NCBI GenBank assembly: GCA_963575745.1
Contig: CAUYUJ010000115.1
Coordinates: forward strand, 620,001-669,721
Origin: Prorocentrum cordatum
Lineage: Eukaryota
Reading direction: 5' to 3'
Length of the DNA stretch: 49,721 bases
Shown here: piece by piece, positions 3,816-21,779 of the stretch
Numbering within the stretch: position 1 is the stretch's first letter
How the letters are laid out: each line of letters opens with the position of its first letter
The notes under the pieces: model-generated
The model's database searches: none
The model's input: the letters and a program-made list of their open reading frames with translations, nothing else
What the model was told of the DNA's origin: nothing
Made by a program: the position numbers and the translations under genes

Positions 3816-6800
3816 AGCAGCAACGACGACAGCGCAACAGGCGATGACGACGATGCCCCGCATCGGCAGGGCATCGGGGCGAGGGCATCCAGCAGAGTCG
3901 GTGGGCATCCGGCAGTCATCCCGCAGCGTACCAGCAGTCACTTTGCAATCGAAGGCCAATTCGCGAATCTTCCGACGGTCTCGATGATCCTCAGGACGGG
4001 TGTTTATTGGGTTCCGATTCCCCATTCGCACGCAGCTTGTGCCGCCTGCGTCGCATTGGAGGGCTTTGGTGGACAGGCACACGATGGCGCTACCACACTT
4101 TCTGATAACCATCGACAGTCAATCAGCAGCCAGTCTGAGGAGAGCTTCTTCGCGGACCCACGTCGTCCTGAGCCTGACCCCCAGGGGTGTGTGGCCCCTG
4201 GTCGCGCCCCCGGTGGTGCCTCTCATGGAGAGTCTGGGGGATACTTGCAAACTTCGCTTGCGCACGGGAAGTCCTGGCGCCAAGGGCTCCCCCCCAAACA
4301 AAAAAGCCCAAGCAGAGTGGTAGGATGAGTCGGAGAGACGAAGGAAAAGGAAGAGGGAGTATAAGGAGGAGCAGGAGGAGGAGGAGCAGGAGCAGGAGGG
4401 TGAGGAGGAGGAGCAGGCGGAGGGAGGAGGAGGAGGAGGAGCGGATGTTGCGGGGAAGGAGGAGGAGGAGGAGGAAGAGAAGAGCAAGAGGACGCTGTTT
4501 ATGCCAGCGCTGCAGACGATGCGCTGGGCTCGTGGTGTGAGCGACAGGCGCGGTCTTCCGCGAGGTGGGGATGATGCGGCAGACGGCCCACGGGAATGAG
4601 AACGATGGGGGAGGGGGACGGGAAGCAGAATGAGGGGTCAGGCGTGGGGGGTCGAGTAGGTGAATGAGGAATGGGGAAGGAGGAAGGGAGGGTATAGGAG
4701 AGGGGCGAATGATGAAGATGAGGAGCCCGCGAGGGGCGACCGTTTGGTAGGCGACGGCTCCCGAGCAACCGCGGAGCGGCGGAACCGTCCTGAGGCCCGC
4801 GTCGTGCCTCTTGGAGATGTGCCAGAAGCTATTTTGAGCCATCTTCGTCTTTCTGTTGAACCATGTTCCAGGCCATCATACTGGAGCATCGGATGCCCTC
4901 TTGGAGCCATCTTGAGCCATCTCGGGCGCCCCGACACTTCGCGCCCCCCCCCCCAACTAACCAAAATCTCAGGGAGGGAAGGGGGATAATGCCCCTCACT
5001 CAAGGGGCGAGAGCTGTTCTGGAAGAGGAGAAAGAGATCGCCAGGCCACCTTAGCCCAAAGGGCTGCTGGGATCCTATACCTTGCAACAGCGCTAGCGCA
5101 GTGTCGTCTCTTAGACGGAGGCCGACCATGCATGCAGCATTGCGTAAACTTCCCGCGGAGAGGCTATCCTTTCTATGCTGTTGGCCATGTTGTCGGCCTG
5201 GGTGAGCCTTCGGGTAAGGTCGCCACGCCGCTGTCGCAAGGTCCTCTTTTTGGTGCCTCTCATCGTTTTGGTTGACGTGGAAATCATACATTTCAGACAC
5301 GCTGTCGACCTGCGCCGAGAGGGAAGGGGAGGGCGGGCGAATTCTCAGCGTTCTAGCGTACGCGTCCCAACTCAGAGCAATGTTGATTGCAGATTGGCTC
5401 AAGGAGACGTGCTGGGGTGCAACTTTTGTCGTGTGGTGTGACGTTGATATCAGTCCTGGCAGTCGCTGCGGGACTGGGGTGACCGTCGGATCCAAGAGTT
5501 CGTTGTCGATTTTTGTTGGCGGGCACCGTTCAACCCTTCAGGGCAGCCCAGTGTTGTCAAATGTTGCGCGGCGGTTGCGCGACGACGGTGGGCGCACCGA
5601 CGGGGCCTCTGATGTGGGCCGTGGCCCCCTGAACGGGCAGGTAGACCTCCCTTGGCCTCTCTCGCGGCCCGCGGTGACTTCGGGAGTTCTGTGCGAATTG
5701 CTTGATTTGAGTGTCGCGGTTGCGCAGTGCGTTTCGAGTTTCCTTGGCTTCTGTGACGAGCGAAACCGCGTGAACCAGTGTAAGTTTTCAGACCACAGCC
5801 ACAGTCGCATGGGGTGAAGGCATACATGTTAATCCCTCTTCGCACGATGACCATTGGAACGCGCGGAAGGACGTTATAGAAAGGAGCGTGCTTGAAGCCA
5901 GATGCGCGCGCGTCGAATGTAAAGCAGAGTGGATATGAACGCGAATGCTTTTAGTTTCCATCTCAATGTTTTAATTATGTTTGAATAAGTTGCCCCTGCA
6001 TCGCACATCCAGGTTAACGTTTTCAGACAAAACACTGTGTGTTCGTTTATTTTTTTGTCGATTCATATTTTTCTGTGTGTTCATTCTCAGTTCTTTGTCA
6101 AAAAAGACCGTGCGGCCAGTCAATCGAGTTTCGGCAGTTGTCGTCAACACATCGTAGGCGGAGGGTTTCTGGTTTAGTCGAGATGTCGTTGTTATTTTCA
6201 GGGGGCGGGTGCCCTTGAATATTGGTTTATGTTGTCTTTGTTTTTCATGTCAAATCGGTTCCACGCGTGCGTGCCAGTAGTGATGGTGATACTGTGGTGA
6301 CAGCCCCGTGCTCGTTGTCATGGCCTTCGCAGTTGCCATGCATCTCTTGTGTGTTCACGTGCTCCCCCTTTCTGATCCTGGCGTTCCAGCTGTCTGCTGC
6401 AAGCCGCAGTGGCGCGCAGCAGTTCTGGATGAGGAGCAGGGGGATCTTGTCAGGGGGGCAAGAGGTACTGATAACGAGAAGCTCCAAGATTTCCAGGATT
6501 TCTTATAATATATATAGAGAGACATATATGTATATATACACCCTAACGTTCTACACGGGCTGCAGAAACGAGGTCCGCTGGATACCCCGGAAATCATGGA
6601 ACGCTTCTTGACCCAATCCTATCATGACATTCTCGTCCTAGCTGGAATCCGCTCCAGTTCAGTGCCTCCCTTGTCTCTCCTGCGCACCTCGTGGAGAAAC
6701 CAAGAGGAGCCGACACTGTGCCGCTGCTCCCTGTACCTTTCCGGGGGTGCGTTCTGACCAGGATTCCGAGGCGAAGCCAGCGATGGCGACGAGGGCCTTC

Positions 6801-9685
6801 CATCAAGGGAGGAAAACCACCCGGACCCGACAATCGGCGTTTACAACATGGCCCTGGGCGTTTATGAATCAGCCCTGCCCTGTTCGATGCCTTCTGTGGG
6901 TGCGTTTGCTGAACGTCTTCGCGTGTCGGGGTCATCCTCATGGGAGGTGAATTTTCTGCCCTCCCATCCCAGGGGGCCCAGAAAGGGGAGACGAGGCAAG
7001 GGTAGCAGTGTGGGCACCTTTTCTTCCACCGACCTCGCTCGCCAGTCTCTCCAGGGCCCCCACCGGCGCTCCGTGCCGCGCGGCTGGGTCGGGGCGCCGA
7101 GGTGCTCTCGCAGCTGGTGGCGCACAGGGGCGAGGAGCCTCGAGAGAGGGGGCCACGGGCGTCGGGCGTGTCCGTGTCCATGCTCTCGCAGGCTCGGGGG
7201 AGGGAGAGGCGACACCGCCACCCCCAGGGGGGGGGGGGCACCTCCATGGGGCGATCGCAGACATGGAGTAAAGGGGGCGTGGATTAGCGACGGGTCCCGC
7301 TTCCAGGGGGAATCGCGGGTTTCCGCCGCCGAAGGAGGCGGCATTGGCCGCATTGTGGGGAGGGCACCTCCCCCGAGCCATGGATTTGGCGACCGCGCGC
7401 CTGATCCATGGGTCGCTAATCCATGGTTGCGCGCCCCCGACTCCGGCGAGGAGCTCCACCATGCTTCCCCGAGCTGGGGGCAGGGGACGTCTCGAGCGAG
7501 AGGGGGGGGCCACACCACCAGGGGGACCCGCCCTGGCTCCTCCCGCTGGTGGTCCCTGGTGGTGGTGGTGTCGCTTGTCCTTGTTCGTGCGGGCTGGGCG
7601 CCGGGGCGCGATGCTCTGGATCAGGCTTGTGTTCGCCGAAAGTTTAGACTTTCACCGACAGTTGTTGTGTTTGGCGTTTAGCGGCCGTTAGCGTCGAATA
7701 GGGGATGATTGGTGGACGGTCGGCGCGGGGCGCATGCCGCTGTTTGCAGCTGATCGGCTGCCGCTATTTGACGCCATTGGCCGCTAACCCGCCATAATCC
7801 TGACTATGGTAGCCTTCCATGAAAGCGAACAGAGAGATGGACGCGCGACCCCCTGGAATCTAGACTGCTCCGCGCTGGCCATCCGCGCAGAGCCGCCCGG
7901 TATCCACAGGATCGCGGCCCAGAAGTTCGAACAGCGAGGTTGTGAGTACGGACCTGTCTCTTGCCCAGGAAGTGTGAGGGAGCGAGGGGAGCAGTGGCCA
8001 GTAGCCGTCGTAGTAGATGTAGCTGTTGCACCAGGTTCCCCTGCCTGGGCGGAGCGTACGTGCACATGAGCGCACAAAAAAACGGGTTCGACTGCGTCGA
8101 CATTCGCGCGTAGGCTGCCCGGGCAAGGTCGCGTGTAAGTGATCTCGTTTCCAATGTGGCGTGCCGCGCTGGCGGCCCGCGTAAGCCGCGGCGCAGGGTC
8201 GCTAAATCATCTCGCTTCAGAGCTGTTCCTTTTCGCCGCTCAGATGGAAGGCAACATTGGGACCGTTCTACGGTCGAGCCAGATCTGCATTCGAAATGGA
8301 AGTTGTGGGCATCTGCGCCGCCGCGGCCCAGAGCTTCTCAGCTGACTCAACACGCGGATGTGGAACAACCCGAGCAAGAGCGCTCGCCTTGATAGCTAAT
8401 TGTGCGTCATGTCGACCGGCGGCGTTCCCGAACGCTGATCGCCGCCGGCGACCCGGAATTGGTCGATGCTGAACGATTTGATGCTTCGGGAACGGTTGAT
8501 CGTTCAAGGTTGGACGATCCCCGCGGAGTCTGAAACCAACGACCAGGTCGGTGTCGACATTGCATGCAAGTAGCAGGGAAGCGCGCTGGCGGCGGGCCAG
8601 AGCAAGCGATGACGAATGCGGTTGCCCAGTTTCTCTATTTGGTACTCCTGCACTGTGTTCTCTGCTCCTTTGCTCTAGAGCCTCTGACACATGTTCTGTA
8701 TGAGACAAGTTCGTTCCCTCGCCCCGGGCCCTATGCGGCCTCCAGCAGGTTCCAGTGTCTTGGCAATGTTCGGCTTCCTGGTGAAGTCAAAATTCTATTT
8801 CGTTCTTAACTCGATCCTGGCCAAGCATTCTCTTTCACAAAGAATAGTATGCTGCTGGTAATGGTCAGAGTTCACGTCAAATAGTACCTTGCGGGTCCCA
8901 CACGCGCTCGCGTTTGAGAATCTATGGAAGGCCATGCGTGCGTTGCACACCCGACGAGCATGTCATGTGAAGTCGATGTTTCAACGAACGTGATTATATA
9001 TGCCACACAAGCGCTCAACACTGTCAGAATTGTTTGCGGGTGCACTTGCGAAGTAATCCGATTCCCCAAATAAAGTGAAACACTCCCTTTCGAACGACCG
9101 ACAACAAGCAGTTTTGACATCACATGCCCTGCCCATGGTTGTCGCCGATGGTTGTCGTTCTGAGGTCTGGGGCGTCGACGACCTTGTGCTCCTGCTTTCC
9201 TCGTCTTCGCTCTCCAGTCCTCGTCTTTCCGTCCTCTTCTCGTCGTCCTCCTCTTCCCGCCTCCTCTCCTAGTCTTCGTATTTTTCCTAGTCATATCTCC
9301 TCGTCCATCGTTCCTCCCCTCCTCTTCTTGTCCTCGTCGTCCATCCTCGTCCTCCTCACATCCTCTTCCTCCTTTCTTATTCGTTCATCATTCTTCTCCT
9401 CTCGCTCCATGTTCGTCCCCCCCGACGTCTTGCCTGCCTCCCCTCCCCTCTCGTGTCATTACCGTCTCCCTCATCTCTCTCCTCTGCAGAGGTTGAGAAG
9501 ACCAAGCGAAATCATTGTCAGGGACTCATTATACCGTCGTCGCAATCGTCACCCTATTACATCATCGCCGGTTTTGTCGGTCCGAGCAAGATCGGATATC
9601 GCATCTCCGTGGTAACGGCGTCTGCTGCTTTGGTGGCGGGTTGGGGGGGGACCCGCGGCAGCGGGGGTCGCTTTGGCCAGCTGCC

Positions 9686-12271
9686 ATGGCAAACGAATCG
9701 TTCGCCCAAATCATCAAAAGAAGCATCGCGTACCGAGCTCGATTCAGGGTTGAGTCGAAGAAGGTCGTGGCGCCGTTTCAGATTGTGCCTCATCCTCAGA
9801 ACCGCGGCGGCGATCCAGTGAAATCGTTGCGTACGAACCAAATTATATATAGCATCATGAAGGATGGGTACGAACCCATAGATGCAAACAGCAACGGTGT
9901 GCTCGTGGAAGAAAAACCCGTGTTGGCGGGGGGCAGCGACACAGTCATACAAGACAACTTCGCGAAGGAGATCTTGTTAGATCTGGACATGGCCCTGCAT
10001 AACACATCCCGCCAGCCAGCGAAGTATGGTAGTTTGTCGCACAGCCATCTGAATTGTTCTTTCCGCAACATCTTGGGCAACAAAAAAAGGATGCGAGTGC
10101 TCAGGGACCCGCGGTGGCGGGGCCGAGCAGGCCAAGTGTGATTGCAAGTTTTCGACACTTTTGGACGAAAAGGGAAACTACATGTTGGAGAAAGTGCGAG
10201 CTCACGATGGTGAGTGGGGTTCTCAGTGCGAAGGCGGCCTGGAGTGGGAGATTCTGTCTTGGAGGATGGACGAAGAGGAGCCCGAAGCAGCTCTAGTAAT
10301 CAGCATCGCATTCAACAAGAATAACGAAACTGCCATGAAAACGGGCCACCTGGAGATCCTGTCGACCCTGGTGGGTTCGTGCAAACCAGACCCCCACGGA
10401 TGCGTGCCTTTCGAGCCAGTGAGGGACAAGCTCATCGATTTGTATGGGGCGGAGATCGACCATCCTGACTTCCTGCACCTATTCAAATTGGTGTGTGATG
10501 CAGGAGGGGAGGGCAGTATTCACATGAAAGACCTGTTCTCGTTCACTGGTGTGTTCGTGAACCCGAAGGTGCGCAAAATGCGCATGGAGGCCTATGGCGC
10601 GATTGCGCCCTACCCTGAGGAGTTCCCCAAACTCAAGAACGCTCGCCTCAAGTGGGCTTGGAAGCAGCCGCCCGCCAGAGGGTTTTGCCAGATCCCCCCC
10701 AGCATTGCGCACAGATTCAACAAGGAATCGAGGTTCCAGATGTATGATTTCTTGAAGGAAGTAGAGGGTGCATTCCTGCAGCTGGGAAAAATGGCATCCG
10801 CGGTAGTGGGGGGGGCCGACTTCCGAGAAGTTGCGGTGCAAGTGGATTGCGGAGGTGGAGGTCAATGTCATGGCAAAAATCCGCAGAAATGCGCTATCTA
10901 CCGCTGCCCCCCCTGCTCGTCAGCATCGTCCTCTCCCCTTCTTCCCCTCGCAATTGTACTCCTCCCCTCCCCTCAACGTCCGTTTCCCCCACCTCTCCTC
11001 AAGAGTGGTTCTGTCCCTCACCTCCCTCACCTCCCCTCGTCGTTCGTTCTTCCTGCTCTTGCATGTTGTTCCCCTCCCCCCATTTCCGTCGGAAGCAGTT
11101 CGAGACCCCTCCGCTCCCATAGTGGGGCTGTCTGATTTTCGCGGCCCCGAAGAATCCCAGCGACGGCGAGTCTGTCAGGGAGCAGGAGGGCGCGATCGCA
11201 AAGGATTGCAGCTCATTCATCGCGACCAAGCTACGGGAGTTGATGTCATTGGGAAAGGCTGGGTTGACAAAGGCGGACATGCCTCAGTTTCCGCGGGAGA
11301 CGGACCTGATGCAGGAAGTAGGGAAATTGCGGGACGACCCGAATGATAAGGGGCAATCGCCTTCCCCCGGGCCGAAGGGCAAGAGCTCCGTGGCCACGGA
11401 GACTCTGACGCCCAAGGTAATCAAGCAGGACGCAGAAGGGAGGGCTTTGACCGCGCACGAGACAGTGTCTGCCGCAGTAGGAGTAGCGAACGGGGACAAA
11501 GTGGATACCATTCCATGGCGCGAGTGGGCGCGCTCTGCCTGCGCCTCGGACGACAAGCAGATTGCCAAGCAGGCACTGGCGTTTGCCATGTCCGCTAACC
11601 ACGACCACATGACATGCGAAATCCCTATCGCGATGATCAAGAGCGGCAGCGTGGTCAAGGCCGTGGCCACGAGAGACATTCCCGTGGGGCACTTGAAGGT
11701 GCCATTGTGGTTCAAGAAGGACGCGCCCATGGTCATGGAGGGGCCGGGCGTCTTCATCCACCCGAAAGCCGCGTGCGCAGAGGTGTCGTGGGTAAAAACC
11801 ATTACCGAGGCAGAAGAAGTAGCTGGCGTCGAAAGCGGGGAAGAGGTGGTCGTGAGGATTCACGTCCAGCCTGAGCTCAGACTCCCGAAGGAGGGTGACG
11901 CAGGGTTCGTATGGGACCCGAGGGACTCAGTCCACCCGTTCTGGTTCATCAAGCGCAGTGACCACAAGGGGAACGCCGTCACAGACCACCACTGCGAGGC
12001 GAACGCCTCCGTGGTGATGGAGACGGTGAAACAAGTTTGGGCGAGTGATTACGTTCATCTGAAGACTGCCGAGGCCGAGGTGGCTCCTATGGTGTCCACG
12101 TATTCAGTGAAGCTGCCGTGCATCGTCAGCAAGGCCCCAATCAAGGCGGGGCAAGAGGTTGTCGTACAATTTGACGGCGCTCCCACGACGAAGAAACAAA
12201 AAGCCACGACGCAGCAGACCGCCTTCGACCAGATCGCGGCGCCCCAGAAGAAGAAGCCGAAAAAGAAGTGA
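9686..12271 (+). pseudogene. Protein with N-terminal ParB/Srx-like domain and C-terminal SET-like domain; frameshifted and interrupted
   Basis: ATG at 9686. N-terminus IVPHPQNRGG...SIMKDGY...GSLSHSHLN (ParB-like). Frameshift at the A-run ~10082, then GLEWEILSW...ISIAFN. Frameshift at the G-run ~10810 and a ~250-bp pyrimidine-rich insert/intron ~10881-11134. C-terminus KAVATRDIPVG...PFWFIKRS...EAN...PCIVSKAPIKAGQEVVV (SET-like). Domain calls by motif recognition only. Confidence 0.55.
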
Positions 12272-12347
12272 GTAGGTCGGGTCTCGATCCGCGGTGGCGG
12301 AGCGATTCACCACATACCAGCGCTCCGAGGCAGAGAGCGCCGCGCGC

Positions 12348-12538
12348 AGAAAAGTCGACCTGTAAATCCAAAAACTGAATGAAACTTTTCTGTGGCTCTT
12401 TAAGGAGGCCGACGGCGGCCGGGTCACCCGCGAAAGCGTTGGGGAGTTCTGTAGAGTCAACAATGGAAAAGTCGACCTGTAATTCCAAAAACTGAATTCA
12501 ACTTTTCTGTGGCTCTTCAAGGAGGCCGACGGCGGCCT
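12348..12538. repeat. 1.6 copies of the 117-bp repeat also arrayed at 19064-19660
   Basis: AAAAGTCGACCTGTAA.TCCAAAAACTGAAT...GGCCGACGGCGGCC with GACC at 12357 and 12474 (period 117). Confidence 0.9.
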
Positions 12539-12795
12539 CCGCCCTTCGTTCCTGCCTTCTCCGCTCTCCTCCTCCTGCCTTTTCCGCCCTCCTCCTTCCT
12601 CCTTTCTGCCCTCCGCTCTCCTGCTCCTGCGTTCCGCTCTCCTCCTCCTGCCTTTTCCCTGTCCCATGTCCTCCGCCCTCCTCCTTTCTCCTTTCTGGCG
12701 TCCTCCTGCCCCTCCGCGCTCCTCCTTCCGCAGCCGCGCAGCCTCGAGCCCCTCTGCCCCATCTTCGTGGTGACGGAGTGTGGGGGAGGGGGGGC

Positions 12796-15065
12796 ATGAG
12801 CAGCGCATCCCCGCGTTCGAAACGCCCAAAACTGACCAGCGTTGAGCCGAGCTCGCTCGACAGTTCGTCGGCCCGCCGCCACAGGCGACGCAGCCCGCCG
12901 AGCAGCCGCCCGAAAGCGCAACTCGTGGCACGAGCGAAAGCCGAGCCAGCCGAGCCAAAGCGGCCGAGGGCGCAGCTCGTTCGGCGCCAGGACAAGGACA
13001 AGGACCAGAAGGACAAGGAGGAGGAGGGGAAATCCGCGGTAGCGGAGAAGGACAAGGACCACAAGGACAAGGACCACAAGGAGAAGAACAAGGACGGCAA
13101 GAAGGAGAAGAAGGAGAGGAAGGAAACGGAGAAGGAGACATCCGCGGTAGCGGAGAAGGGCAGCAACGACAGGGAGGACAAGGACAAGAAGCAGGCGCCG
13201 CAGGAGGCGCAGCAGCGAGCGGTAAAGAGGAGGCGTCTGCCCAAGAAGGACAGGGAGCGGAAGAAGAGACTGGAGGAGGCGCCGAAGCAGGCACCGAAGG
13301 AGCGTCTGCCGAAGCTCGCGCCCAAGGGGGCCACGGAGAAATCCGCGGCAGCGGAGAAGAAGCGTCCGCCGAAGCAGGCCCCGAAGGAGCGTCCGCCGAA
13401 GCCCGCGACCAAGGGGGCCGACTCGTACTCGTCGGACTCGTACTCGTCGGACTCGGACTCGTACTCCCACTCGGACGAAGAAGCGGGCGCGGCAGCACCG
13501 GCGGCAGCGGCGAAGCCGGGCCGCGGGCCGCGCGGGGTTCCTCCGCCGCGGAGCGCCATGGCGGCAGCAGCCAGCGGCACCAGCGGCGCCGAGGAGCGCG
13601 CGCGGGGACTGCAGCAGGCAGCGGCCTCAGCCGCATCAGCCAGTCAGCCGCGCAAGCCAGCCGCACCAGCCTCAGAAGGAGCCGCGGTTGCGGCGGCGTC
13701 TCCACGCGATGGGGCCGCGGTGGCGGGGAAGCGGGGGAAGAGCAGCAGCGGCAGCAGCAGCGCCACCACCAGCAGCAGGCGCAGCACGAGCGAAGAAGCG
13801 GACGCGGCAGCACCACGTGCACAACCCGGGAGCCAACGGTCGCAAACGGAACAGGCCGCCGCTTTCGGAGTGCCCGCCCCCCCTCACCTGCGCGGGGACA
13901 GCCCCCAGCGGTCTGGACTGGGAGCTCTTGGGCTGCTTGGGCCCAACAGCAGCAGCAGCAGGCGCAGGGGCACTGGCATGCTTGGCGGCAGTGGGAGGCC
14001 ACGCAGAGTTCGGAACAGCAGAGCTCCGCGGTCGCGGAGAGCTCCGCGGTCGCGAAGGGGTCTGCTGCGCGCGACGACGTTGGCTTTGGACAGGCTCAGT
14101 GCGTGTGCGTGGACGTTGCCGAAGGGGCCAACCTCCCTGAGATCGCGAGCGACCTGCGCAACCAGGGTCCTCATATGCTCCTGGTGCGGCGCTCTACAGT
14201 AGAGCAGAGGAAAGAGCTCCAAGACATGCTGACGCAGGGCCGCGCAGAGGGCCAGGGGCGCGCAGAGGGCGAGGGGCGCGCAGAGGTGCCCTTCCTCTGC
14301 TCTGACCAAGGGCCGTTCCTACTGGCAGGGCGGGATGGGTTCGTGTCAGAGGTGGGTGTGCAGCAGTTTCTGAACCTGCCTGGCGTCGGCCAGATTACGT
14401 TCGGCGAGTTTTCTTTGGCCGTGAGTATCCAGCAGATGGTGTCCATCAAGGTGGCCGTGGTCAGTCTGACCCCAGGCGGCGATCAGCCCATCGACTCCGC
14501 GGCGGCGGACAACTGGACGAAGGTCGTGGACTGCATTGGACGGAAGTCAGTTCGATTCGTGGCTGGCCACTTCGCGGACAAGCTCGACGAGTTCCTCGTT
14601 GCGACGCGCACATTTGTGCAGGTGAGAGCGTGCGCCACTCTGCATGTCGACGCTCACGCCGAGACCCACTCGGCAACCGCTATGTTCATCGTGGGGCCTG
14701 TCGGCCGCGTGAAGGAGCGGCTGGAGGGCGGTGGCTACAGTATCACCCGTGGTGACGGGGTCGAGGCCTTGCCCGCTGCAGTCGAAAAGGCGATCGACCA
14801 CGCGCAGAGCGCGTTTGGCCAGCGTGCGTACCTGGGCGGGGAGGGGGCGGACAGATCGCGAGGCTGGCCCACCATCCAGATGTCGAAGGAGAAGCCGCCG
14901 CGCCATGTCGCAGACCACGCGAAAAAGATTGTGATCTTTTTTCGGCTCCACTGCGCCCCGCCGCACGAAAGGGAAGGGCAAGATGCGCCAGGACAATCGC
15001 GAGGTGCGCGCGGAGAAGTGGTGCCAGAAAACTGGCAAGCAGCCCGGGTGGCGCAACTCAGGTAG
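12796..15065 (+). CDS. Hypothetical protein: Lys/Glu/Ala-rich N-terminal part (12796-14202) and globular C-terminal part (14103-15065), probably one frameshifted gene
   Basis: Two long overlapping + ORFs with GC3-rich codons; the C-terminal part has an alpha/beta-like pattern (IKVAVVSL...VRFVAGHFADKL). Confidence 0.45.
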
Positions 15066-15237
15066 CGGGTAGGGCTCTGGCGCACCCGCGGTTGCGGGGG
15101 AAGTCTGATTAGGTAATTAATAACCCGCGGTCGCGGTGAAGTATGTAGCAGTCTCTGCGCAGTCGCCCGCGGTCGCGGGGCTTCGGCGGACGCGCGCGCA
15201 CAAAAAGGGGAGCAGGACAGTTAGGAGGGATTGTCCT

Positions 15238-15705
15238 AATCTTACTCCTCCTCACCACTCTTACTCGTGCTCCCACTCTTACTCTTACTCTTACTCTACT
15301 CCTCCTCACCACTCCTACTCCTACTCGTCTTTTACTCGTGCTCTTACTGTTGCTCCCGCTCTCACTCTGACTCTCGCTCTCACTCTGACTCTCACTCGTA
15401 CGCTTACTCTTACTTAAACTCTGAGGTCTACTCCTACTCTTACTCTTACTCTTACTCTTACTCTTACTCTCAATCTTGCTCTTACTCTTACTCTTACTTG
15501 TCCTCGTACTCTTACCTTTAATGTTGACTCTTACTCGTGCTCTTACTCTTACTCGTACTCTTACCTTTACGTACTCTTACTCGTACTCTTACTCTTACTC
15601 TTACTCTGACTCTTACCCGTACGCGTACTATTACTCTTAATCACTCTGAGTCTCACTCTTACTCTTTCTCTTACTCTTACTCGTACTCATACTCGTACTC
15701 TTACC
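15238..15705. repeat. (TACTCT)n hexanucleotide microsatellite
   Basis: Direct inspection. Confidence 0.9.
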
Positions 15706-15740
15706 AGAGCGCTTTTCAGCTCGAGTCTTACATACTGCAC

Positions 15741-16043
15741 ATGGCGGGCTTGTTCCCGCGAGGGGAAGCAACAATCTCACATTGCGACGATGAGGAAACG
15801 CTTGCCGCCCGAGATAGGGAGGCCTTCATTCGGGTTGCTGTTGTCGATGCTCGGACTTGTTCGTGGGCTTGGCGGATGGCGCCGCGATATCGGACCGTGT
15901 TCGGCCTCGTTCTCTCAACCCTATTTCCGGGAGGATTCGTTATTCCCGATTGGGGTCGAGTTCTGTGGCGGTGCAGAATGGCGATCACGGACCCAGATGA
16001 CGACTTCGACACAGACTGGGGGGATTACGTTGCCTCTCCCTGA
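15741..16043 (+). CDS. Small hypothetical protein (~100 aa)
   Basis: ATG at 15741; normal-complexity sequence (AWRMAPRYRTVFGLVLSTLFPGGFVIPDWGRVLW). Confidence 0.3.
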   Translation: MAGLFPRGEATISHCDDEETLAARDREAFIRVAVVDARTCSWAWRMAPRYRTVFGLVLSTLFPGGFVIPDWGRVLWRCRMAITDPDDDFDTDWGDYVASP

Positions 16044-16108
16044 GGCGGCGGCGGCGACCGACACGGCGGCGGTGGCGACGGACGATTCTGTTCTCCTCCG
16101 ACGCAGCC

Positions 16109-17476
16109 ATGTCGGCCCAAGGGCGACTTTTCGCGGGTGGCGCCAACGAGGCCCGCGCGGAGCTCGCCAGAGCCCACGACAAACGAACCAACACCCGGGG
16201 CCCCAGGGCCCGCTCGGCAAGGCGCCGTCCCTGGGCTCCGCCGCCCGACGGCTTGGCGACCTGGGCCGAGAGCCCCCAAGAAGACGCGATGGCGGAGCCA
16301 CGGCCTGCAGGACTTGGTATCCCGCCAGGGCTGGAGCCAGCCGCGGTGGCGGCAGGGGGTGGTGCTCCAGCCGCGGTGGCGGCGGGAGGCGGTGCTCAAG
16401 CCGCGGTGGCGGCGACGCGAGCAGACCTGGACGCGCTTCCCATGACGCAGCCGTTCAACAGGAACAACACCGCTCTGAAGTGGATCAGGGACACTTCAGA
16501 GAACCCTCCAGGCTTTCCAACAACGCACCAGGCCGACATCACCGAAGTGGACCCCATGGACATAGGAGTGCTCGACCGCACCTCGGGAATGGCATACAGT
16601 TTCAAGGTCGGACAGACGCAGCCATGGTCATGGCGGCAAATGTTGGCAGCCTTCAAACCAGAGGTGAAGGACAGAGTTCTGGGACCTGATCCCTCGGTGG
16701 GCGTCGCGCGCATCACGTGCGAGGCCATAGGCGGGCACGACCACAAGCGCTGGCACGCCGCGCGTGCCATGGGAAGGCCTTTCGCCGAAGGAGCTCCCGC
16801 TCCGATCTGGGACTACCGCGTGCACCGCGCGGACAACGTCGTCACCAGGTTCCACACCAGCCTCACGAACAACAAAGTGGAGGTAGCCACTGTCGACAGT
16901 GGCCTCGTCCTGCCTGGGCCGCCAAGGGCGGGGAAAGGCAAGACGGACGGCAAAGGCACGTACAAGAACAAGACGACAGGGAACTACGAGCAGTCCTACC
17001 GCGGTACTGGCTCAGGGATCCGCGGTGGCGGAGTTGGGCCAGCCCCTCAGGGGTCCGCGGTGGCGGAGTTGGGCCAGCCAGAAGCCCCCCCGCAGGCCGA
17101 CGCTTCGGGACCTCCGTCGCGCGCCGCTGCAGGAGAGGGGGCTCAGCAGGCAGCCTCGTGGGAGGCGGGGGCGGCCTGGTGGGAGGCGAAGGCGGCCTGG
17201 TGGGAGGCGAAGCAGGAGCCCGCCTCGCGCGCGGACGGTGCGTGGAGCGGCGCAGACTGGTGGAGCAGCGGGTGGAAGAGAGCGGCGGAGCAAGAGCCCG
17301 CCTGGTCCCGCGGCGGAGACTGGGAGGAGAGCGGCGGAGACTGGGAGGGCTGGGAGTGGCCCAGCAGCGGTGGCGCCAGCAGTTCCGCCGCAGGCGGGGC
17401 AGCTTCGGCAGCCGAGCCTTCCACGGAGGAGAAGGAGCAGTGGAAGAAGTGGGGGTGGCGCTCGGACTGGAAGTGA
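16109..17476 (+). CDS. Hypothetical protein, 455 aa, with globular core and Trp-rich low-complexity tail
   Basis: Uninterrupted ORF; core NTALKWIRD...PWSWRQMLAAF...HDHKRWHA...PIWDYRVHRADNVVTRFH has protein-like composition. Confidence 0.65.
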   Translation: MSAQGRLFAGGANEARAELARAHDKRTNTRGPRARSARRRPWAPPPDGLATWAESPQEDAMAEPRPAGLGIPPGLEPAAVAAGGGAPAAVAAGGGAQAAVAATRADLDALPMTQPFNRNNTALKWIRDTSENPPGFPTTHQADITEVDPMDIGVLDRTSGMAYSFKVGQTQPWSWRQMLAAFKPEVKDRVLGPDPSVGVARITCEAIGGHDHKRWHAARAMGRPFAEGAPAPIWDYRVHRADNVVTRFHTSLTNNKVEVATVDSGLVLPGPPRAGKGKTDGKGTYKNKTTGNYEQSYRGTGSGIRGGGVGPAPQGSAVAELGQPEAPPQADASGPPSRAAAGEGAQQAASWEAGAAWWEAKAAWWEAKQEPASRADGAWSGADWWSSGWKRAAEQEPAWSRGGDWEESGGDWEGWEWPSSGGASSSAAGGAASAAEPSTEEKEQWKKWGWRSDWK

Positions 17477-17802
17477 GGACGTCTGAAGTGGTGGTGGAGC
17501 ATATTCTCCGCGGTGGCGGTGTCGTAGAAGCACTCGCGGTGGCGAGGGCCGTGTCCGAGCATCCGTGCGAGGGCGTCAAGCGCGGCGCGAAAAATGCTTT
17601 GTTTCCTCTTCCTGCGCATCACTTTCTCCCCCTCCTCTTCACGTTCCTCTCTCTCGACGTGCGATTTGCATGCAGCCGCCCTCTGCCTCGACGCCCGCCT
17701 CTCCCCTCCGCGCCTCTGCCTCGACGCCCGCCTCTCCTCTCCGCGCCCCCCTTGTCCGCCGGACGGCGCCGAATTATCCTGGAAGGGCTCCGGAGGTCCC
17801 CC

Positions 17803-17952
17803 TGACAACCATCGCCTGGCGATGGTTGTCAACGTCTTGGGGTGACAAGCATCGCCTGGCGATGGTTGTCATGGGTGTTGGGGTGGCAACCATCGCCTGG
17901 CGATGGTTGTCACGGTCTTGGGGTGACAACCATCGCCTGGCGATGGTTGTCA
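17803..17952. repeat. Four copies of the 29-bp palindrome TGACAACCATCGCC-T-GGCGATGGTTGTCA separated by 11-12-bp linkers
   Basis: Copies start at 17803, 17843, 17884, 17924; linkers ACGTCTTGGGG, TGGGTGTTGGGG, CGGTCTTGGGG; copies 2 and 3 each carry one substitution. Confidence 0.95.
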
Positions 17953-18078
17953 CACGGTGTCGTTCCGTCGGCTCCCCGCGGTGGCTCGAGCTGGATCCAC
18001 GGTGGCGGAGACTCGCGACCTTTGCGCGGTTGCGGATTTCCCCGGCCGCGTCTACGCGGTTGCGGAGCAGCCTCGAAA

Positions 18079-18749
18079 ATGGCAGGGTTCGCTCTCCCAA
18101 AGTTCAAGCCCCTCGAGTTTCAGTTCGGTCAGGTTCACGTGCGCGGGGGCCACAGCGGCAAGTTTGCGCTTCTCGTCTCCAAGGTCGTTCGCTCTCCAAA
18201 CTCCTCGGTGGAGGAGAGGTTTGTGAAGTTGGCTTTCACAGACCAGTGGCTGATCGGCCTTACAACGGGCTCGACGAAGTACTCCCAGAGTTCGTTTGGG
18301 CGCACCTCGTTACTCGCCGACCTGCGTGCCCACGTGGAGAAGCTCTGCGACGGCGACGAAGCGCCGGAGGCGCCAGACGCCCAAGAGGCGGAGGTGCAGG
18401 GGGGAGACTACGACCCGATGGCCGAGATCGACCAGAACGGCGGGGCCGACACAGACCGCGCCAAGGTGGCAGGAGTGCAGGGTGTGAAGCGCACCCGCTA
18501 CTACAATAACCACGTGAAAAAAACACCGTGGTCACGGTGAGCATGCTTGAGCGGTGCCCCGAGCAGGATCCTCTCTGCCAGGAGGTCCGCAAGATCAAGC
18601 TCTTCATCGAGGATCGCAAGCAGATTTGGCTCCATTTGAACGATCTGGACTGGGCGGTGAGGTACTTATACGTGCAGAACATGCTGAAGGGCGTTCCGAT
18701 GGTTTCTCCAGACTCGGCGGGGGCAAGCGGCGCTTCAGGCGGCGCGTAG
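18079..18749 (+). CDS. Hypothetical protein (~220 aa) with a frameshift in an A7 run at ~18517
   Basis: MAGFALPKFKPLEF...EERFVKLAFTDQWL joins NTVVTVSMLERCPE...IWLHLNDLDWAVRYL across the A-run. Confidence 0.6.
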
Positions 18750-19063
18750 AGACGCCATGGTAATGGTGTTCCCTGCACTCGCAACGGTGCTCGGGAGATC
18801 AGGGGGGTCTCCGAACAGGCGAACAAGGACGGCAAGTCATTCCTAGAAAACGTCAGTGCGTGACTCAGGGTTTCAAGAATCCTGCACCCGGCTCCATGGT
18901 CATGGAGGGCTGGGGTTGCCACAAGCAGGACGTTTTAGCACGCAGTGACACATGGCTTGCCCCTTGTAGTTCCCGCGGTTACAAGCGCAGCTCGAATGCC
19001 TCGTCCGAAGCGCGCGCGATGAAAAGACGCCTCCCTTGCATCATCTTCCTCCGCCTCCTGCAG

Positions 19064-19660
19064 TGTCCACAATAGAAAAGTCGACCTGTAATTCCAAAAA
19101 CTGAATGAAACTTTTCTGTGGCTCTTTAAGGAGGCCGACGGCGGCCGGGTCACCCGAGAAAGCGTTGGGGAGTCCTGTGTTGTCCACAATGCAAAAGCCG
19201 ACCTGTAATTCCAAAAACTGAATGAAATTTTTCTGTGGCTCTTTAGGGGGGCCGACGGCGGCCGGGTCACCCGCGAAAGCGTTGGGGAGTCCTGAATTGT
19301 CCACAATGGAAAAGTCGACCTGTAAGTTCAAAAACTGAATGAAACTTTTCTGTGGCTCTTTAAGGAGGCCGACGGCGGCCGGGTCACCCGCGAAAGCGTT
19401 GGGGAGTCCTGTGTTGTCCACAATGCAAAAGCCGACCTGTCATTCCAAAAACTGAATGAAATTTTTCTGTGGCTCTTTAAGGGGGCCGACGGCGGCCGGG
19501 TCACCCGCGAAAGCGTTGGGGAGTCCTGAATTGTCCACAATGGAAAAGTCGACCTGTAAGTTCAAAAACTGAATGAAACTTTTCTGTGGCTCTTTAAGGA
19601 GGCCGACGGCGGCCGGGTCACCCGCGAAAGCGTTGGGGAGTCCTGTATCGTCCACAATGA
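19064..19660. repeat. 117-bp tandem repeat, 5 units, alternating A/B variants (234-bp higher-order unit)
   Basis: TGTCCACAAT at 19064, 19181, 19298, 19415, 19532 and variant CGTCCACAAT at 19649; GCAAAAGCCG and GGAAAAGTCG variants alternate. Confidence 0.95.
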
Positions 19661-20217
19661 GAAGTCGCGTCGAGGCTGGGCCCGCGCTAACGCAGGGCAC
19701 AACCGTCGACTGGCGCAGGCCCAGGCCAGGCGGTGGGGTGAGCGCGAGTCGGCGTCGCGGAGCCGAGCAACCTCGCCGACGCCTCCCCCAAGCCTGGCGC
19801 TGGGTCAGCCCAGCCTCGACACAACTAGCAGCCACTGCGACGCCAGTGCGCTCGCGCAGCAGGGTCGGGCGGGTGGGGAAAAACGCATCCCGCCAGCGGG
19901 ACGGCCACGCGTGAGACAAATCCCATTCACCTGCGACGAGAACGCGCTCGCGGGCGCGCAGGGTGGGGATCCGCCTCAGCCGTGAATAGCCGTCCCGCAG
20001 CATTAGAGACAAGCAAGAAGATAGCCAATAGGGGCCACGACGCTCGCGCGACTTCTCCCCGCGCTCAAATGCTGCCCAGAGCGCCCATTGGAAGTCGCGT
20101 CGAGGCTGGGCCCGCGCTAACGCAGGGCACAACCGTCGACTGGCGCAGGCCCAGGCCAGGCGGTGGGGCGAGCGCGAGTCGGCGTCGCGAAGCCGAGCAA
20201 CCTCGCCGACGCCTCCC
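19661..20217 (-). repeat. Split direct repeat (B1-A2-B2-like 3' terminus): two 127-bp copies at 19661-19787 and 20091-20217
   Basis: GAAGTCGCGTCGAGGCTGGG...CCGACGCCTCCC duplicated 430 bp apart with 2 mismatches. Confidence 0.85.
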
Positions 20218-20499
20218 GATGCATGCTCGGCGGAACGACGCCCAAGCGCGCTCTAAGCAGACCGCAGATGCCTGGTCTGCTTGACTCACGGCCTGGGCGG
20301 CCCCTGCACCGCTTCCGCGGCGATCGGCGCGTCCTGCGCGCCACGCGCCGCCGCGGAGCCCCGACCCCGATGCCTGCAGGGCGGCGCCTCGTCGGAATCG
20401 GAGTGCGCGATCTCGGCTTCTGCCGCCAGCACCATGGCTCGCGTCTTTGCGGCCGGGTACCTGTGCGCCGCCAAGCGCCGCGCCCTCGCGACCCAGGCA

Positions 20500-21640: not shown

Positions 21641-21779
21641 GCCGACGAGGTGTTCCTGGCACCCGCCGCGCGCCGATGTCCTGCCTCGCGCGCACCTCCC
21701 GCGGAATGCCGCCTTCGTTTATGAATATCGCGGGCGGAGCCTGGAGTTTCGTCAGCTGGCGGATTGCCTCTGCCAGCAT

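What the first reader, a model, noticed from the sequence alone, without database searches (positions are those of the whole stretch)
9653..18065. Strand-polarised, frame-independent 12-mer CCGCGGYNGCGG across a ParB-like gene block
Seen: 19 matches counted by eye on the + strand (9653, 10109, 12289, 13034, 13142, 13343, 13682, 13715, 14026, 14497, 15086, 15125, 15167, 16341, 16371, 16401, 17020, 17055, 17508) plus near-matches to ~18065. I noticed no reverse-complement matches in this block. It occurs in different reading frames (SAVA and RGGG) and in intergenic DNA, so it is not just a peptide repeat. Inference: an oriented DNA signal (protein loading, packaging or modification site) that marks this block as a unit, perhaps read by the ParB-like protein.
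Basis: partly seen in the sequence, partly recalled or inferred. Interest (0 to 1): 0.72.

Follow-up and report, generated by a model that had tools for sequence, protein, structure and literature searches.

The report
Sense-strand hairpin tag on dinoflagellate genes
The repeated 12-letter motif is the core of a tiny GC-rich hairpin written about 30 times on the coding strand of a compact block of uncharacterised dinoflagellate genes, and relatives elsewhere carry the same hairpin, so it is probably a functional nucleic-acid tag of still unknown use.

Summary
There are 19 exact CCGCGGYNGCGG on the + strand at 9653-17519 and none on the − strand of the block; local nulls expect 0.04-0.12. The 12-mer is the core of a hairpin, A-N-CCGC-GGYN-GCGG-N'-G, with a 5-bp stem and a tetraloop. 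The closing pair is Watson-Crick in 16 of 19 copies, using three pair types. Variant stems are compensated (CCGT/ACGG, CCAT/ATGG). In a test anchored on the 5' half only, 29 of 41 + strand anchors in the block pair fully, against 0 of 47 on the + strand elsewhere.

A covariance model finds about 35 copies, all between 9.6 and 18.9 kb on the sense strand of a compact, co-oriented, nearly intronless block. The nearest named protein is from Prorocentrum cordatum. Relatives of two block genes carry the motif's translations in all three frames. A 37%-identical relative (L338) has 7 sense-strand copies with the same stem and a GTTG loop.

A hairpin starts 17-31 nt after 3 of 4 stop codons and overlaps the fourth. 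Gene 1's N-domain is weakly ParB/sulfiredoxin-like by fold only. Best reading (0.42): a lineage-specific hairpin read on the sense strand, probably as RNA, as a multi-copy binding tag. No RNA data or binding partner was obtained.

The parts
9652..9665 (+). hairpin C-CCGC-GGCA-GCGG-G, 21 nt before gene 1 ATG
10108..10121 (+). hairpin C-CCGC-GGTG-GCGG-G, read as TRGGG in the frame that relative P0057 uses
12288..12301 (+). hairpin T-CCGC-GGTG-GCGG-A, starts 17 nt after gene 1 stop
13033..13046 (+). hairpin (loop GGTA), read SAVAE in gene 2
13141..13154 (+). hairpin (loop GGTA), read SAVAE
13342..13355 (+). hairpin (loop GGCA), read SAAAE
13681..13694 (+). hairpin G-CCGC-GGTT-GCGG-C, read AAVAA
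13714..13727 (+). 12-mer copy with mismatched closing pair (G..G), read AAVAG
14025..14038 (+). hairpin (loop GGTC), read SAVAE just before gene 2's conserved C-domain; degenerate twin at 14044
14496..14509 (+). hairpin (loop GGCG; C>T at 14503 in runs X1 and X2 gives GGTG), inside gene 2 C-domain; relative P0054 reads SAVAD at what I judged by eye to be the same spot
15085..15098 (+). hairpin, starts 20 nt after gene 2 stop
15124..15137 (+). 12-mer copy (closing C..T), +59 after gene 2 stop
15166..15179 (+). hairpin, +101 after gene 2 stop
16340..16413 (+). three hairpins in a 30-nt tandem repeat (16340, 16370, 16400), read AAVAA just before gene 3's conserved core
17019..17067 (+). two hairpins in a 35-nt tandem repeat (17019 read IRGGG, 17054 read SAVAE) just after gene 3's core
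17507..17520 (+). 12-mer copy (closing T..T), starts 31 nt after gene 3 stop
17533..17546 (+). compensated variant C-TCGC-GGTG-GCGA-G, +57 after gene 3 stop
11387..11400 (+). compensated variant T-CCGT-GGCC-ACGG-A (fully self-complementary, so it scores on both strands)
14746..14759 (+). compensated variant C-CCGT-GGTG-ACGG-G
16621..16634 (+). compensated variant G-CCAT-GGTC-ATGG-C inside gene 3 core
18202..18215 (+). compensated variant T-CCTC-GGTG-GAGG-A in gene 4
18525..18538 (+). compensated variant A-CCGT-GGTC-ACGG-T; its last base is the first base of gene 4's TGA; 5 nt before the ATG of tentative ORF 5
18893..18906 (+). compensated variant T-CCAT-GGTC-ATGG-A
9606..18767 (+). weaker model hits not used to build the model. 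E<1: 9603, 9914 (loop GTTG), 10794, 11723, 12005, 12761 (hairpin ends 19 nt before gene 2 ATG), 17150, 17993. E 1.3: 18751 (hit starts given)
9686..10857 (+). gene 1, first part: N-domain 9686-10087 (weakly ParB/sulfiredoxin-like fold) plus a Cys-rich middle; the frame is broken near the A-run 10083-10089 and in the G-run around 10811
10858..11122 (+). CT-rich tract: an intron in the paralog's gene model, or a spacer between two genes
11123..12271 (+). gene 1, second part (SET-like is a lead only); 92% identical to a P. cordatum protein
12796..15065 (+). gene 2: K/E- and S/A-rich N part, conserved C-domain from about 14100; the frame changes between 13727 and 14025
16109..17476 (+). gene 3: linker, conserved core (about residues 100-260, fold unassigned), W/G-rich tail
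18079..18540 (+). gene 4 (153 aa); tentative ORF 5 at 18543-18749

Best explanation
The 12-mer is the core of a 14-16-nt GC hairpin, A-N-CCGC-GGYN-GCGG-N'-G, with a 5-bp stem and a 4-nt loop. About 35 copies lie on the sense strand of a compact, co-oriented block of five or six ORFs (about 9.05-19.06 kb), and I found no copy of the block genes elsewhere in the window. I propose that the hairpin folds in the block's sense-strand transcripts and serves as a multi-copy binding tag for a factor matched to each lineage's loop. Copies are kept wherever the sequence tolerates them: just before ATGs, just after stop codons, in protein linkers and variable loops (in whatever reading frame fits), and occasionally inside conserved domains. 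Shown: the sequence, the strand bias, the restriction to the block, base-pair covariation, conservation in relatives with a lineage-specific loop, and the placement at gene ends. Inferred: that the folded molecule is RNA rather than single-stranded DNA, that a protein reads it, and what the tag achieves (selective packaging or RNP assembly, export, stability or translation of the element's own mRNAs).
For: Excess and polarity: 19 on + and 0 on - in the block, against 0.04-0.12 expected. Any perfect 5-bp stem with a GGYN loop: 23 on + and 1 on -, null 0.5-0.7. Pairing: the closing pair, which the search pattern did not require, is Watson-Crick in 16 of 19 copies (T-A 8, C-G 4, G-C 4; no label permutation reached this). 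Anchored test (5' half plus loop only): 29 of 41 anchors fully paired on + in the block, 0 of 47 on + elsewhere, 1 of 20 and 2 of 44 on -. Among non-consensus 5' halves, 10 of 16 are fully paired (CCGT with ACGG, CCAT with ATGG). Block limits: the 29 best covariance-model hits (E<0.1) are all on + between 9.9 and 18.9 kb. Among hits not used to build the model (E<1), 8 are on + in the block, 1 is outside, and the only - hit is a self-complementary site. Family trait: L338, 37% identical to gene 3's core, has 7 of 7 CCGC-GTTG-GCGG on its coding strand (null 0.001). All 7 keep the A-N...N'-G frame, with closing pairs C-G x3, A-T x3 and one mismatch; two follow its stop codon. Relatives' proteins are enriched for sense-frame translations. 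Gene 3 family: frame a 110 against 2.5 shuffled, frame c 36 against 3.6. Gene 1 N-domain family: frame b (PR[WLS]R) 10 against 1.2, frame c 16 against 2.7. Antisense-frame controls sit near the null apart from two excesses (gene 3 family P[PLQR]PR 9 against 1.9; gene 1 N family R[YHND]RG 10 against 1.3), which I put down to proline-rich tails and the domain's NRGG motif without testing this. In the variable loop after 'GCEC' of gene 1, the window and P0057 read TRGGG while P0061 and P0063 read SAVAE. At the spot of 14497, which I lined up by eye from the printed sequences, relatives have SAVAD, EATAD or SELAE with no length change, so the motif arises by substitution there. Placement: a hairpin starts 17-31 nt after 3 of 4 stops (p about 0.004-0.006) and overlaps the fourth. 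Predicted stability: -8.6 to -10.8 kcal/mol as RNA.
Against: No RNA evidence at all: no RNA run was listed, and the four runs laid look like DNA. Every gene in the block and in L338 has the same orientation, so transcript sense cannot be separated from element or replication orientation. The wobble test does not favour RNA: by my tally's listed rows, single-defect copies show 3 G-T pairs against 4 C/A mismatches. No reader protein was identified. Gene 3's core has no fold match (Foldseek best E 0.7; VIA best Z 4.7). Gene 1's N-domain is only weakly ParB/Srx-like. In the window, 11 of 13 coding copies share one reading frame, and in the 31-sequence alignment 'AAVA' and 'SAVAE' are positionally conserved beside gene 3's core, so a peptide role is not fully excluded. 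DNA from only one relative could be read. The other evidence from relatives is indirect (peptides). Seven of the 33 rows in the pair-count table were selected for pairing, so that table is partly circular.
Confidence: 0.42

Rival explanations
1. DNA-level oriented signal. The sites act in DNA, as a clustered array of imperfect inverted repeats or as extruded or single-stranded hairpins. They would load, orient or partition something on this unit, possibly read by the ParB/sulfiredoxin-like protein of gene 1.
For: The four runs laid, which look like DNA, carry the unit at 90-99% identity, apart from its right flank in two of them. Gene 1's N-domain matches only ParB/Srx-fold chains by their names and my recollection: 7 of 7 chains with Z>=2 among 48,161, including KorB and PadC. 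The hairpin is also stable as DNA (-5.6 to -6.9 kcal/mol). The wobble tally (3 G-T against 4 C/A,'s rows) does not favour RNA. Clustered repeats as centromere-like sites are known for plasmid partition systems (recalled).
Against: The Z scores are low (2.3-4.2) and there is no Pfam or PDB sequence match. No helix-turn-helix or other DNA-reading domain was found. Covariation of paired positions is not expected for a double-stranded binding site; it needs strand extrusion or a templated repair process. parS-type sites are symmetric, whereas this site has a strand-specific loop (23 against 1). The 1.6-kb L338 contig carries 7 hairpins with only a gene 3 relative on it, though the contig is too short to exclude a neighbouring gene 1.
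Confidence: 0.17
2. Gene-boundary punctuation. The hairpin is a processing or translation signal at cistron ends of a polycistronic transcript (3'-end formation, or stop/restart coupling). The coding copies would be degenerate by-products.
For: A hairpin starts +17, +20 and +31 nt after the stops of genes 1-3 and overlaps gene 4's stop, 5 nt before the next ATG. In L338 the 14-nt hairpin starts 9 nt after the stop. Hairpins end 21 and 19 nt before the ATGs of genes 1 and 2. Each gene is preceded by a long CT-rich tract. The size and post-stop position recall the histone mRNA stem-loop and the Mimivirus 'hairpin rule' (both recalled).
Against: 22 of 35 copies lie inside ORFs, many with perfect consensus, so they are not degenerate. 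Cutting there would destroy the mRNAs. Rfam found no histone stem-loop or any other family at the hairpins. The post-stop statistic rests on four genes, with ORF ends that I defined. I corrected one of them, and the 4-of-4 version uses a window chosen afterwards. No transcript ends were observed.
Confidence: 0.15
3. Mutational footprint. The hairpin is a slippage- or template-switch-prone sequence that spreads by micro-duplication and gene conversion, and survives only where it is tolerated (linkers, UTRs), without a function of its own.
For: Several copies sit in tandem duplications (30-nt x3 at 16341-16412; 35-nt x2 at 17020-17066). Copies favour linkers, variable loops and post-stop DNA. 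Templated correction of quasi-palindromes can mimic compensatory change (recalled).
Against: Strand exclusivity (23 against 1). In that earlier case the hairpins lay on both strands. The copy just before gene 3's core is positionally kept in most of 31 homologs at 32-74% identity. All 7 copies in L338 share the same altered loop. At 14497 the motif exists without any length change relative to homologs, as judged by eye from the printed sequences. Peptide enrichment holds across 40 and 150 diverged relatives.
Confidence: 0.12
4. Conserved peptide. The repeats encode a functional S/A-A-V-A-E/A peptide (a linker or a protease site), and the nucleotide identity is secondary.
For: 11 of 13 coding copies in the window are read as x-A-V/A-A-x. 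AAVA and SAVAE flank gene 3's core in most homologs.
Against: 6 of the 19 exact copies and 13 of 35 model hits are non-coding. Two other frames are translated in the window and in relatives (RGGG, PRWR). The alanine codons are always GCG and the stem's flanking pair co-varies, which a peptide does not require. L338 encodes A-L-A instead of A-V-A while keeping the stem.
Confidence: 0.03

Closest known systems
Dispersed RNA packaging signals of single-stranded RNA viruses (MS2, STNV, parechovirus, HBV pgRNA). PMC6281560 and PMC5699041 were seen only as search listing and abstract or highlights.
   Same: Many short stem-loops sharing a loop motif, spread over coding and non-coding sequence of one strand, with the code overlaid on protein coding.
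   Different: Here the sequence is chromosomal DNA of a eukaryote, the stem as well as the loop is conserved, and no capsid-like protein was found. No virion or RNA genome is known.
Retroviral psi stem-loops with GGNG tetraloops bound by nucleocapsid zinc knuckles (recalled). A review passage on CCHC knuckles reading G-rich loops was seen in PMC12787238.
   Same: A short GC stem capped by a G-rich tetraloop (GGUG is the commonest loop here, 9 of 19).
   Different: About 35 copies rather than a few at one site. No reverse transcriptase, Gag or CCHC protein in the block. Loops GGUC, GGUA and GGUU lack the fourth G.
Histone mRNA 3' stem-loop with its binding protein SLBP (recalled)
   Same: A small stem with a 4-nt loop shortly after the stop codon, with an A-rich 5' flank.
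   Different: Rfam found no match at the hairpins at E<=1. The stem is 5 bp and the sequence differs. There are many copies per gene, including inside ORFs.
ParB-parS and plasmid centromere repeat arrays
   Same: Clustered inverted-repeat sites next to a gene whose product has a ParB/Srx-like fold.
   Different: The site is asymmetric and strand-specific, its paired bases co-vary, it lies mostly inside genes, and no ParB-type DNA-binding domain or partner ATPase was seen.
Bacterial REP/BIME elements with RAYT transposases, and Rickettsia palindromic elements inside genes (both recalled)
   Same: Short palindromic repeats in many copies. The Rickettsia elements are translated in frame.
   Different: Those are genome-wide and longer, and occur in both orientations. 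Here the copies are 14 nt, confined to one gene block and one strand, and at 14497 the motif arose by substitution rather than insertion. My idea that gene 3's core is HUH-like got no fold support.
   Same: Hairpins placed right after stop codons of compact, intronless genes.
   Different: Those hairpins have no conserved sequence or lie on both strands. Here the sequence and the strand are fixed, and most copies are in ORFs.

Membership tests
ParB/sulfiredoxin superfamily (gene 1 N-domain) | ParB/Srx fold | tested here: inconclusive
   Model pLDDT 87.9. Foldseek found no match with E <= 0.001. In VIA-align only 7 of 48,161 chains reach Z>=2, and by their names and my recollection all are ParB/Srx-fold proteins, but Z is only 2.3-4.2.
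ParB/sulfiredoxin superfamily (gene 1 N-domain) | Sequence match to the Pfam ParB-type family or to a solved ParB or Srx | tested here: not met
   0 Pfam families for the window protein and for all 52 aligned relatives. Profile against PDB sequences: best E 0.34, to an unrelated antigen.
ParB/sulfiredoxin superfamily (gene 1 N-domain) | Adjacent helix-turn-helix DNA-binding domain and nucleotide-binding motifs as in chromosomal ParB | not tested
parS / centromere-like sites | Symmetric double-stranded site, equal on both strands | tested here: not met
   The loop is strand-specific: 23 on + against 1 on -.
parS / centromere-like sites | Bound by the cognate ParB | not testable with these tools
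   Needs EMSA or DAP-seq.
Dispersed RNA packaging signals | Multiple stem-loops with a shared motif across coding and non-coding sequence of one strand | tested here: met
   About 35 copies, 13 non-coding and 22 in ORFs, all on +.
Dispersed RNA packaging signals | A cognate coat protein and an encapsidated RNA | tested here: inconclusive
   No capsid-like fold for gene 3. Other block proteins were not folded. No RNA data.
Histone 3' stem-loop and other Rfam families | Covariance-model match | tested here: not met
   cmscan of 9000-19200 at E<=1 gave no hit at hairpin positions other than a sub-threshold 'Prion_pknot' hit over two tandem copies.
REP/RAYT-type repeats | Associated HUH (Y1) transposase | tested here: inconclusive
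   No Pfam hit in 87 window ORFs scanned. Gene 3's core has no fold match.
SET-domain methyltransferase (gene 1 C part) | Match to the SET family | tested here: inconclusive
   No Pfam hit at E<=0.01. No PDB profile hit. The Atlas's nearest clusters are SET families at 0.92 with only 131-134 shared features, so this is a lead only.
Dinoflagellate retrogene with relict spliced leader | Relict spliced-leader sequence upstream of the gene | tested here: not met
   A 15-nt piece of the spliced leader (recalled from memory), allowing up to 3 mismatches, gave 4 matches against 1.25 expected, none at a gene start except a 3-mismatch match over gene 3's ATG.

The most novel reading that the evidence does not exclude
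This block represents an undescribed kind of multi-gene, probably mobile or virus-derived, element of dinoflagellates. It writes a lineage-specific hairpin 'barcode' on its own sense strand, even into its coding sequences in any reading frame. The barcode co-evolves with an element-encoded reader, so that the element's nucleic acid is told apart from the host's.
Probability: 0.28. Interest if true: 0.88.

Novelty: new variant of a known kind. Interest (0 to 1): 0.72.

Why it matters
Dinoflagellates are thought to regulate genes mainly after transcription, yet very few cis-acting RNA or DNA signals are known in them. This is a short, clearly defined signal that is easy to synthesise and shows covariation. 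It is tied to two large gene families with no Pfam match: 218 representative clusters for gene 1's N-domain and 40 cluster representatives for gene 3, mostly from unnamed environmental assemblies (ENA, JGI). It offers a direct handle for pull-downs to find a sequence-specific nucleic-acid-binding protein in these organisms. It also allows whole elements of this type to be found in multi-gigabase genomes. Finally, it is a clear case of a nucleotide code overlaid on protein coding: the same 12-mer is translated as AVA, RGGG or PRWR.

Tried and rejected
- The whole genome is not held for this window, so the genome-wide distribution could not be tested.
- Scanning viral contigs for the 15-mer gave 98 loci; each of the 80 listed carries a single, chance-like match.
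- The two-motif pattern in viral contigs and metagenome contigs was too loose: with Y=C and N=G it matches (CGG)n. It returned unrelated tandem or peptide repeats. None of the 337 loci then held has blastn similarity to the window.
- The search for related loci in viral contigs found no relative of gene 3 or of the gene 1 N-domain family.
- No RNA holder was listed among the sequencing runs. Contigs cannot show transcript ends.
- The idea that gene 3's core (FxLNN...YDHK...RFHTS) is an HUH/Rep-like nuclease got no support. Foldseek against PDB: best E 0.7. VIA-align wide: best Z 4.7, to an uncharacterised protein. BFVD: no match with E <= 0.001.
- The Atlas and a PDB sequence search for gene 1's N-terminal ORF returned nothing usable.
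- The G-U wobble tally as an RNA-versus-DNA discriminator was uninformative (3 against 4,'s rows).
- Reading the loop G|GY as a splice donor was rejected: the reading frames run through the copies without splicing and agree with homologs.
- No terminal repeats were found at the block's ends, and no relict spliced leader.
- Literature: the literal 12-mer occurs in papers only in what look like cloning or primer contexts, judging by titles. Four word searches and passages of four papers gave no description of this hairpin or of these gene families. Paper supplements were not opened.
- My first post-stop statistic used a wrong end for gene 4. It is replaced.

Full report
**1. The observation**

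There are 19 matches to CCGCGGYNGCGG on the + strand between 9653 and 17519, and one other match in the 49.7-kb window, on the − strand at 33811. Whole-window dinucleotide shuffles expect 0.31. For the block alone (9400-18950, GC 62%), dinucleotide shuffles give 0.04 and triplet shuffles in three phases give 0.05-0.12. Looser forms keep the polarity: CGCGGTNGCG occurs 23 times on + and 0 times on −. Some copies are tandem duplicates (16341/16371/16401 at 30-nt spacing; 17020/17055 at 35 nt). By my own grouping of the flanks printed there are about 14 independent 12-mer copies.

**2. It is a hairpin, not a linear word**

CCGC-GGYN-GCGG is a 4-bp stem with a tetraloop.

- **Closing pair.** The base on each side of the 12-mer was not part of the search pattern. 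It is Watson-Crick in 16 of 19 copies, with three pair types (T-A 8, C-G 4, G-C 4), and no label permutation reached this. By my grouping, about 11 of the 14 independent copies are paired there.
- **Outer flank.** The next position out is mostly A...G (12 of 19).
- **Motif-free scan.** A scan for any perfect 5-bp stem with a GGYN loop finds 23 on + and 1 on − in the block (null 0.5-0.7, largest 5).
- **Compensated variants.** The extra + strand hairpins carry compensated stems: CCGT/ACGG (11387, 14746, 18525), CCAT/ATGG (16621, 18893), TCGC/GCGA (17533) and CCTC/GAGG (18202).
- **Unbiased test.** Those extras were selected for pairing, so I anchored on the 5' half plus loop only (CCRY-GGYN):

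| Strand and region | Anchors fully paired |
|---|---|
| + strand, block | 29 of 41 |
| + strand, elsewhere | 0 of 47 |
| − strand, block | 1 of 20 |
| − strand, elsewhere | 2 of 44 |

- **Non-consensus stems.** Among anchors whose 5' half is not the consensus, 10 of 16 are fully paired.
- **Pair counts.** The pair-count table on 33 aligned copies shows 97.5% of cells paired, against 82.8% when shuffled. Seven of its rows are the selected ones, so it is partly circular.
- **Stability.** The predicted stability is −8.6 to −10.8 kcal/mol as RNA and −5.6 to −6.9 as DNA.

**3. Extent and placement**

A covariance model built from 26 window copies and 7 L338 copies was run over both strands with filters off.

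- Its 29 best hits (E<0.1) all lie on the + strand between 9914 and 18909.
- Among hits not used for building (E<1), 8 are on + in the block and 1 is elsewhere (43694). The only − strand hit is the self-complementary site at 11384.
- Counting one further hit at E 1.3 (18751), there are about 35 copies. 13 lie in the 3,165 nt I class as non-coding and 22 lie in ORFs.
- A hairpin starts 17, 20 and 31 nt after the stop codons of genes 1, 2 and 3 (p about 0.004-0.006 for 3 of 4 stops).
- Gene 4's stop overlaps the 3' end of a hairpin that sits 5 nt before the ATG of a tentative ORF 5. That call replaces, which used a wrong gene 4 end. The 4-of-4 figure uses a window chosen afterwards.
- Hairpins end 21 and 19 nt before the ATGs of genes 1 and 2.
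- In ORFs the copies favour linkers. Three sit just before gene 3's conserved core and two just after it, and two sit just before gene 2's conserved C-domain.

**4. The surroundings**

- **Organism.** The window is eukaryotic. The closest named homolog, 92% identical, is a Prorocentrum cordatum protein.
- **Atypical architecture.** By that genome paper's table (a passage seen in PMC10666404), P. cordatum genes average about 10 introns of about 4.7 kb and intergenic spacers of about 26 kb. This block holds five or six co-oriented ORFs in 9.5 kb with at most one short CT-rich intron, so it is atypical.
- **Reach of the unit.** Logan contigs of four runs, including marine metagenomes, cover about 9.05-19.1 kb at 90-99% identity, including the CT-rich tract. 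In runs X2 and X4 the right flank (19.9-22 kb), which has high depth in X1, is at or near zero depth. I take the unit to be present beyond this locus, probably in several copies.
- **Boundaries.** No terminal repeats bound it, and I found no relict spliced leader.
- **Domains.** Pfam finds nothing in the 9 block ORFs or in 77 other ORFs of the window, apart from one weak sub-threshold match; a zinc-finger ORF at 45972-49721 is the clear exception.
- **Family members.** Relatives of the block genes hit only the block itself within this window.

**5. The proteins**

- **Gene 1 N-domain (9686-10087).** It has 218 relatives among 50%-identity representatives, with no Pfam or PDB sequence match. 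Its model (pLDDT 87.9) has no Foldseek match. In VIA-align only 7 of 48,161 chains reach Z≥2, and by their names and my recollection all seven are ParB/sulfiredoxin-fold proteins: a free serine kinase, two sulfiredoxins, Atu1540, SbnI, KorB and PadC. The Z scores are only 2.3-4.2. So 'ParB-like' has weak support from fold alone.
- **Gene 1 frameshifts.** The window's gene 1 is frameshifted near an A-run (10083-10089) and in a G-run. Contigs of three runs lack one G at 10811, and P0057 reads straight through.
- **Gene 1 C part.** It is nearest to SET-domain clusters in the Atlas, which is a lead only.
- **Gene 3 core.** It folds confidently (residues about 100-260, pLDDT above 90) but has no structural relative.

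**6. Relatives carry the hairpin**

- **L338.** This was the only relative whose DNA I could read. It is a 1.6-kb contig binned in a bacterial MAG, 37% identical to gene 3's core. It has no GGYN copy. Instead it has 7 exact CCGC-GTTG-GCGG, all on the coding strand (null 0.001). All 7 sit in the same A-N...N'-G frame, with closing pairs C-G x3, A-T x3 and one mismatch. Four lie before the core, one inside it and two after the stop codon. The rest of that MAG shows only background counts.
- **Gene 3 family.** For the other relatives only proteins are available. 39 of the 40 gene 3 relatives contain [SPTA]AVA[GAVDE] (110 occurrences against 2.5 in shuffled sequences). 19 of them contain RG[SGCR]G (36 against 3.6).
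- **Gene 1 N family.** The 150 gene 1 N-domain relatives listed contain PR[WLS]R 10 times (against 1.2) and RG[SGCR]G 16 times (against 2.7).
- **Antisense controls.** Peptides that the antisense motif would encode stay near the null, with two excesses: P[PLQR]PR 9 against 1.9 in the gene 3 family, and R[YHND]RG 10 against 1.3 in the gene 1 N family. I put these down to proline-rich tails and the domain's NRGG motif, without testing that.
- **Same loop, different frames.** In the hypervariable loop after 'GCEC', the window and P0057 read TRGGG, P0061 and P0063 read SAVAE, and others have unrelated sequence.
- **Substitution, not insertion.** At the spot of 14497, which I lined up by eye from the printed sequences, relatives read SAVAD, EATAD or SELAE with no length change. 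In runs X1 and X2 the window's GGCG loop there is GGTG.

So the recurring entity is the nucleotide hairpin, and its loop is uniform within a lineage but differs between lineages.

**7. What it most likely is**

A strand-specific folded element under constraint, belonging to this gene block and its relatives, is well supported.

I favour action in the sense transcripts as a multi-copy binding tag (0.42). Many copies are maintained, even at a cost to coding freedom. The loop changes in concert, as if matched to a reader. The polarity equals the coding polarity in both loci that could be read.

This is inference. No RNA data exist here, orientation cannot be uncoupled from element polarity, and the wobble tally is uninformative (3 G-T against 4 C/A,'s rows).

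The rivals are:

- A DNA-level oriented site, possibly read by the ParB/Srx-like protein (0.17).
- Gene-end punctuation of a polycistronic transcript (0.15).
- A slippage or template-switch footprint (0.12). Strand exclusivity, positional conservation and substitution-type origin argue against it.
- A functional peptide (0.03).

**8. Known systems and novelty**

The nearest analogues are the dispersed packaging signals of ssRNA viruses, retroviral GGNG tetraloop signals, the histone mRNA stem-loop, ParB-parS arrays, REP/RAYT repeats and the Mimivirus hairpin rule. Section Membership tests lists why it is a member of none of them.

Rfam has no family for the hairpin. My literature searches found no description of it or of these gene families.

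I rate it a new variant of a known kind: dispersed cis-acting hairpin signals, here in an unprecedented setting.

Noticed in passing
window 17801-17953: Four tandem copies of a ~40-nt near-perfect palindrome (TGACAACCATCGCC / TGGCGATGGTTGTCA) lie between genes 3 and 4. Rfam gives miRNA-precursor-like hits well below the gathering scores. They are long hairpins of unknown role, distinct from the 14-nt hairpin.
   Followed up: partly
window 19056-19787 and 12348-12537: A 117-nt satellite (about 6 copies) follows the last ORF of the block, and 1.6 copies at 92% identity follow gene 1. Contigs of all four runs show loose ends at 19064.
   Followed up: partly
window 16991-17476 (gene 3 C-terminal tail) and its homologs in alignment A1: The tail is rich in W next to G, S, D or E (for example GGDWEESGGDWEGWEW; homologs have SGWQD-type repeats). 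From memory this recalls the GW/WG Argonaute-binding 'hooks' of GW182 proteins and some viral silencing suppressors. Not tested.
   Followed up: no
window 10083-10089 and about 10809-10816: Gene 1 is out of frame at two homopolymer runs. Contigs of runs X1, X2 and X4 lack one G at 10811, and relative P0057 reads through both places. This is either an assembly error or a decaying copy.
   Followed up: partly
window about 9150-9480, 10890-11120, 12520-12760, 15220-15700, 17600-17760: Each gene of the block is preceded on the sense strand by a 150-500-nt CT-rich tract. One of them is a CTTACT-type microsatellite with no hairpins over 1.17 kb.
   Followed up: no
window 13727-14025: Gene 2 changes reading frame between its low-complexity N part (frame 1) and its conserved C-domain (frame 0). 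The motif is read as x-A-V-A-x on both sides. The cause (small intron or indel) was not resolved.
   Followed up: no
window 6534-7601, 8136-8669, 19884-22000: Stretches with very high contig depth in runs X1 and X3 (up to about 2,200) but little or none in X2. I take these to be high-copy repeats of the host genome flanking the block.
   Followed up: no
L338 (whole locus; contig C78 of G001): A 1.6-kb, 67% GC contig encoding a relative of gene 3 sits in a bacterial MAG. I take it to be mis-binned eukaryote- or virus-derived DNA; the rest of the MAG shows only background counts of the motif.
   Followed up: partly
window 45972-49721: A long open frame running off the window end carries CCCH zinc fingers and a Torus domain (Pfam E 3e-11 to 4e-9). 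It looks like an ordinary host gene, and no hairpin hit with E<1 falls in it.
   Followed up: partly
window 9914-9933: One weaker hairpin inside gene 1's N-domain has the GTTG loop that characterises L338 (CCCGT-GTTG-GCGGG, with a T-G pair).
   Followed up: no
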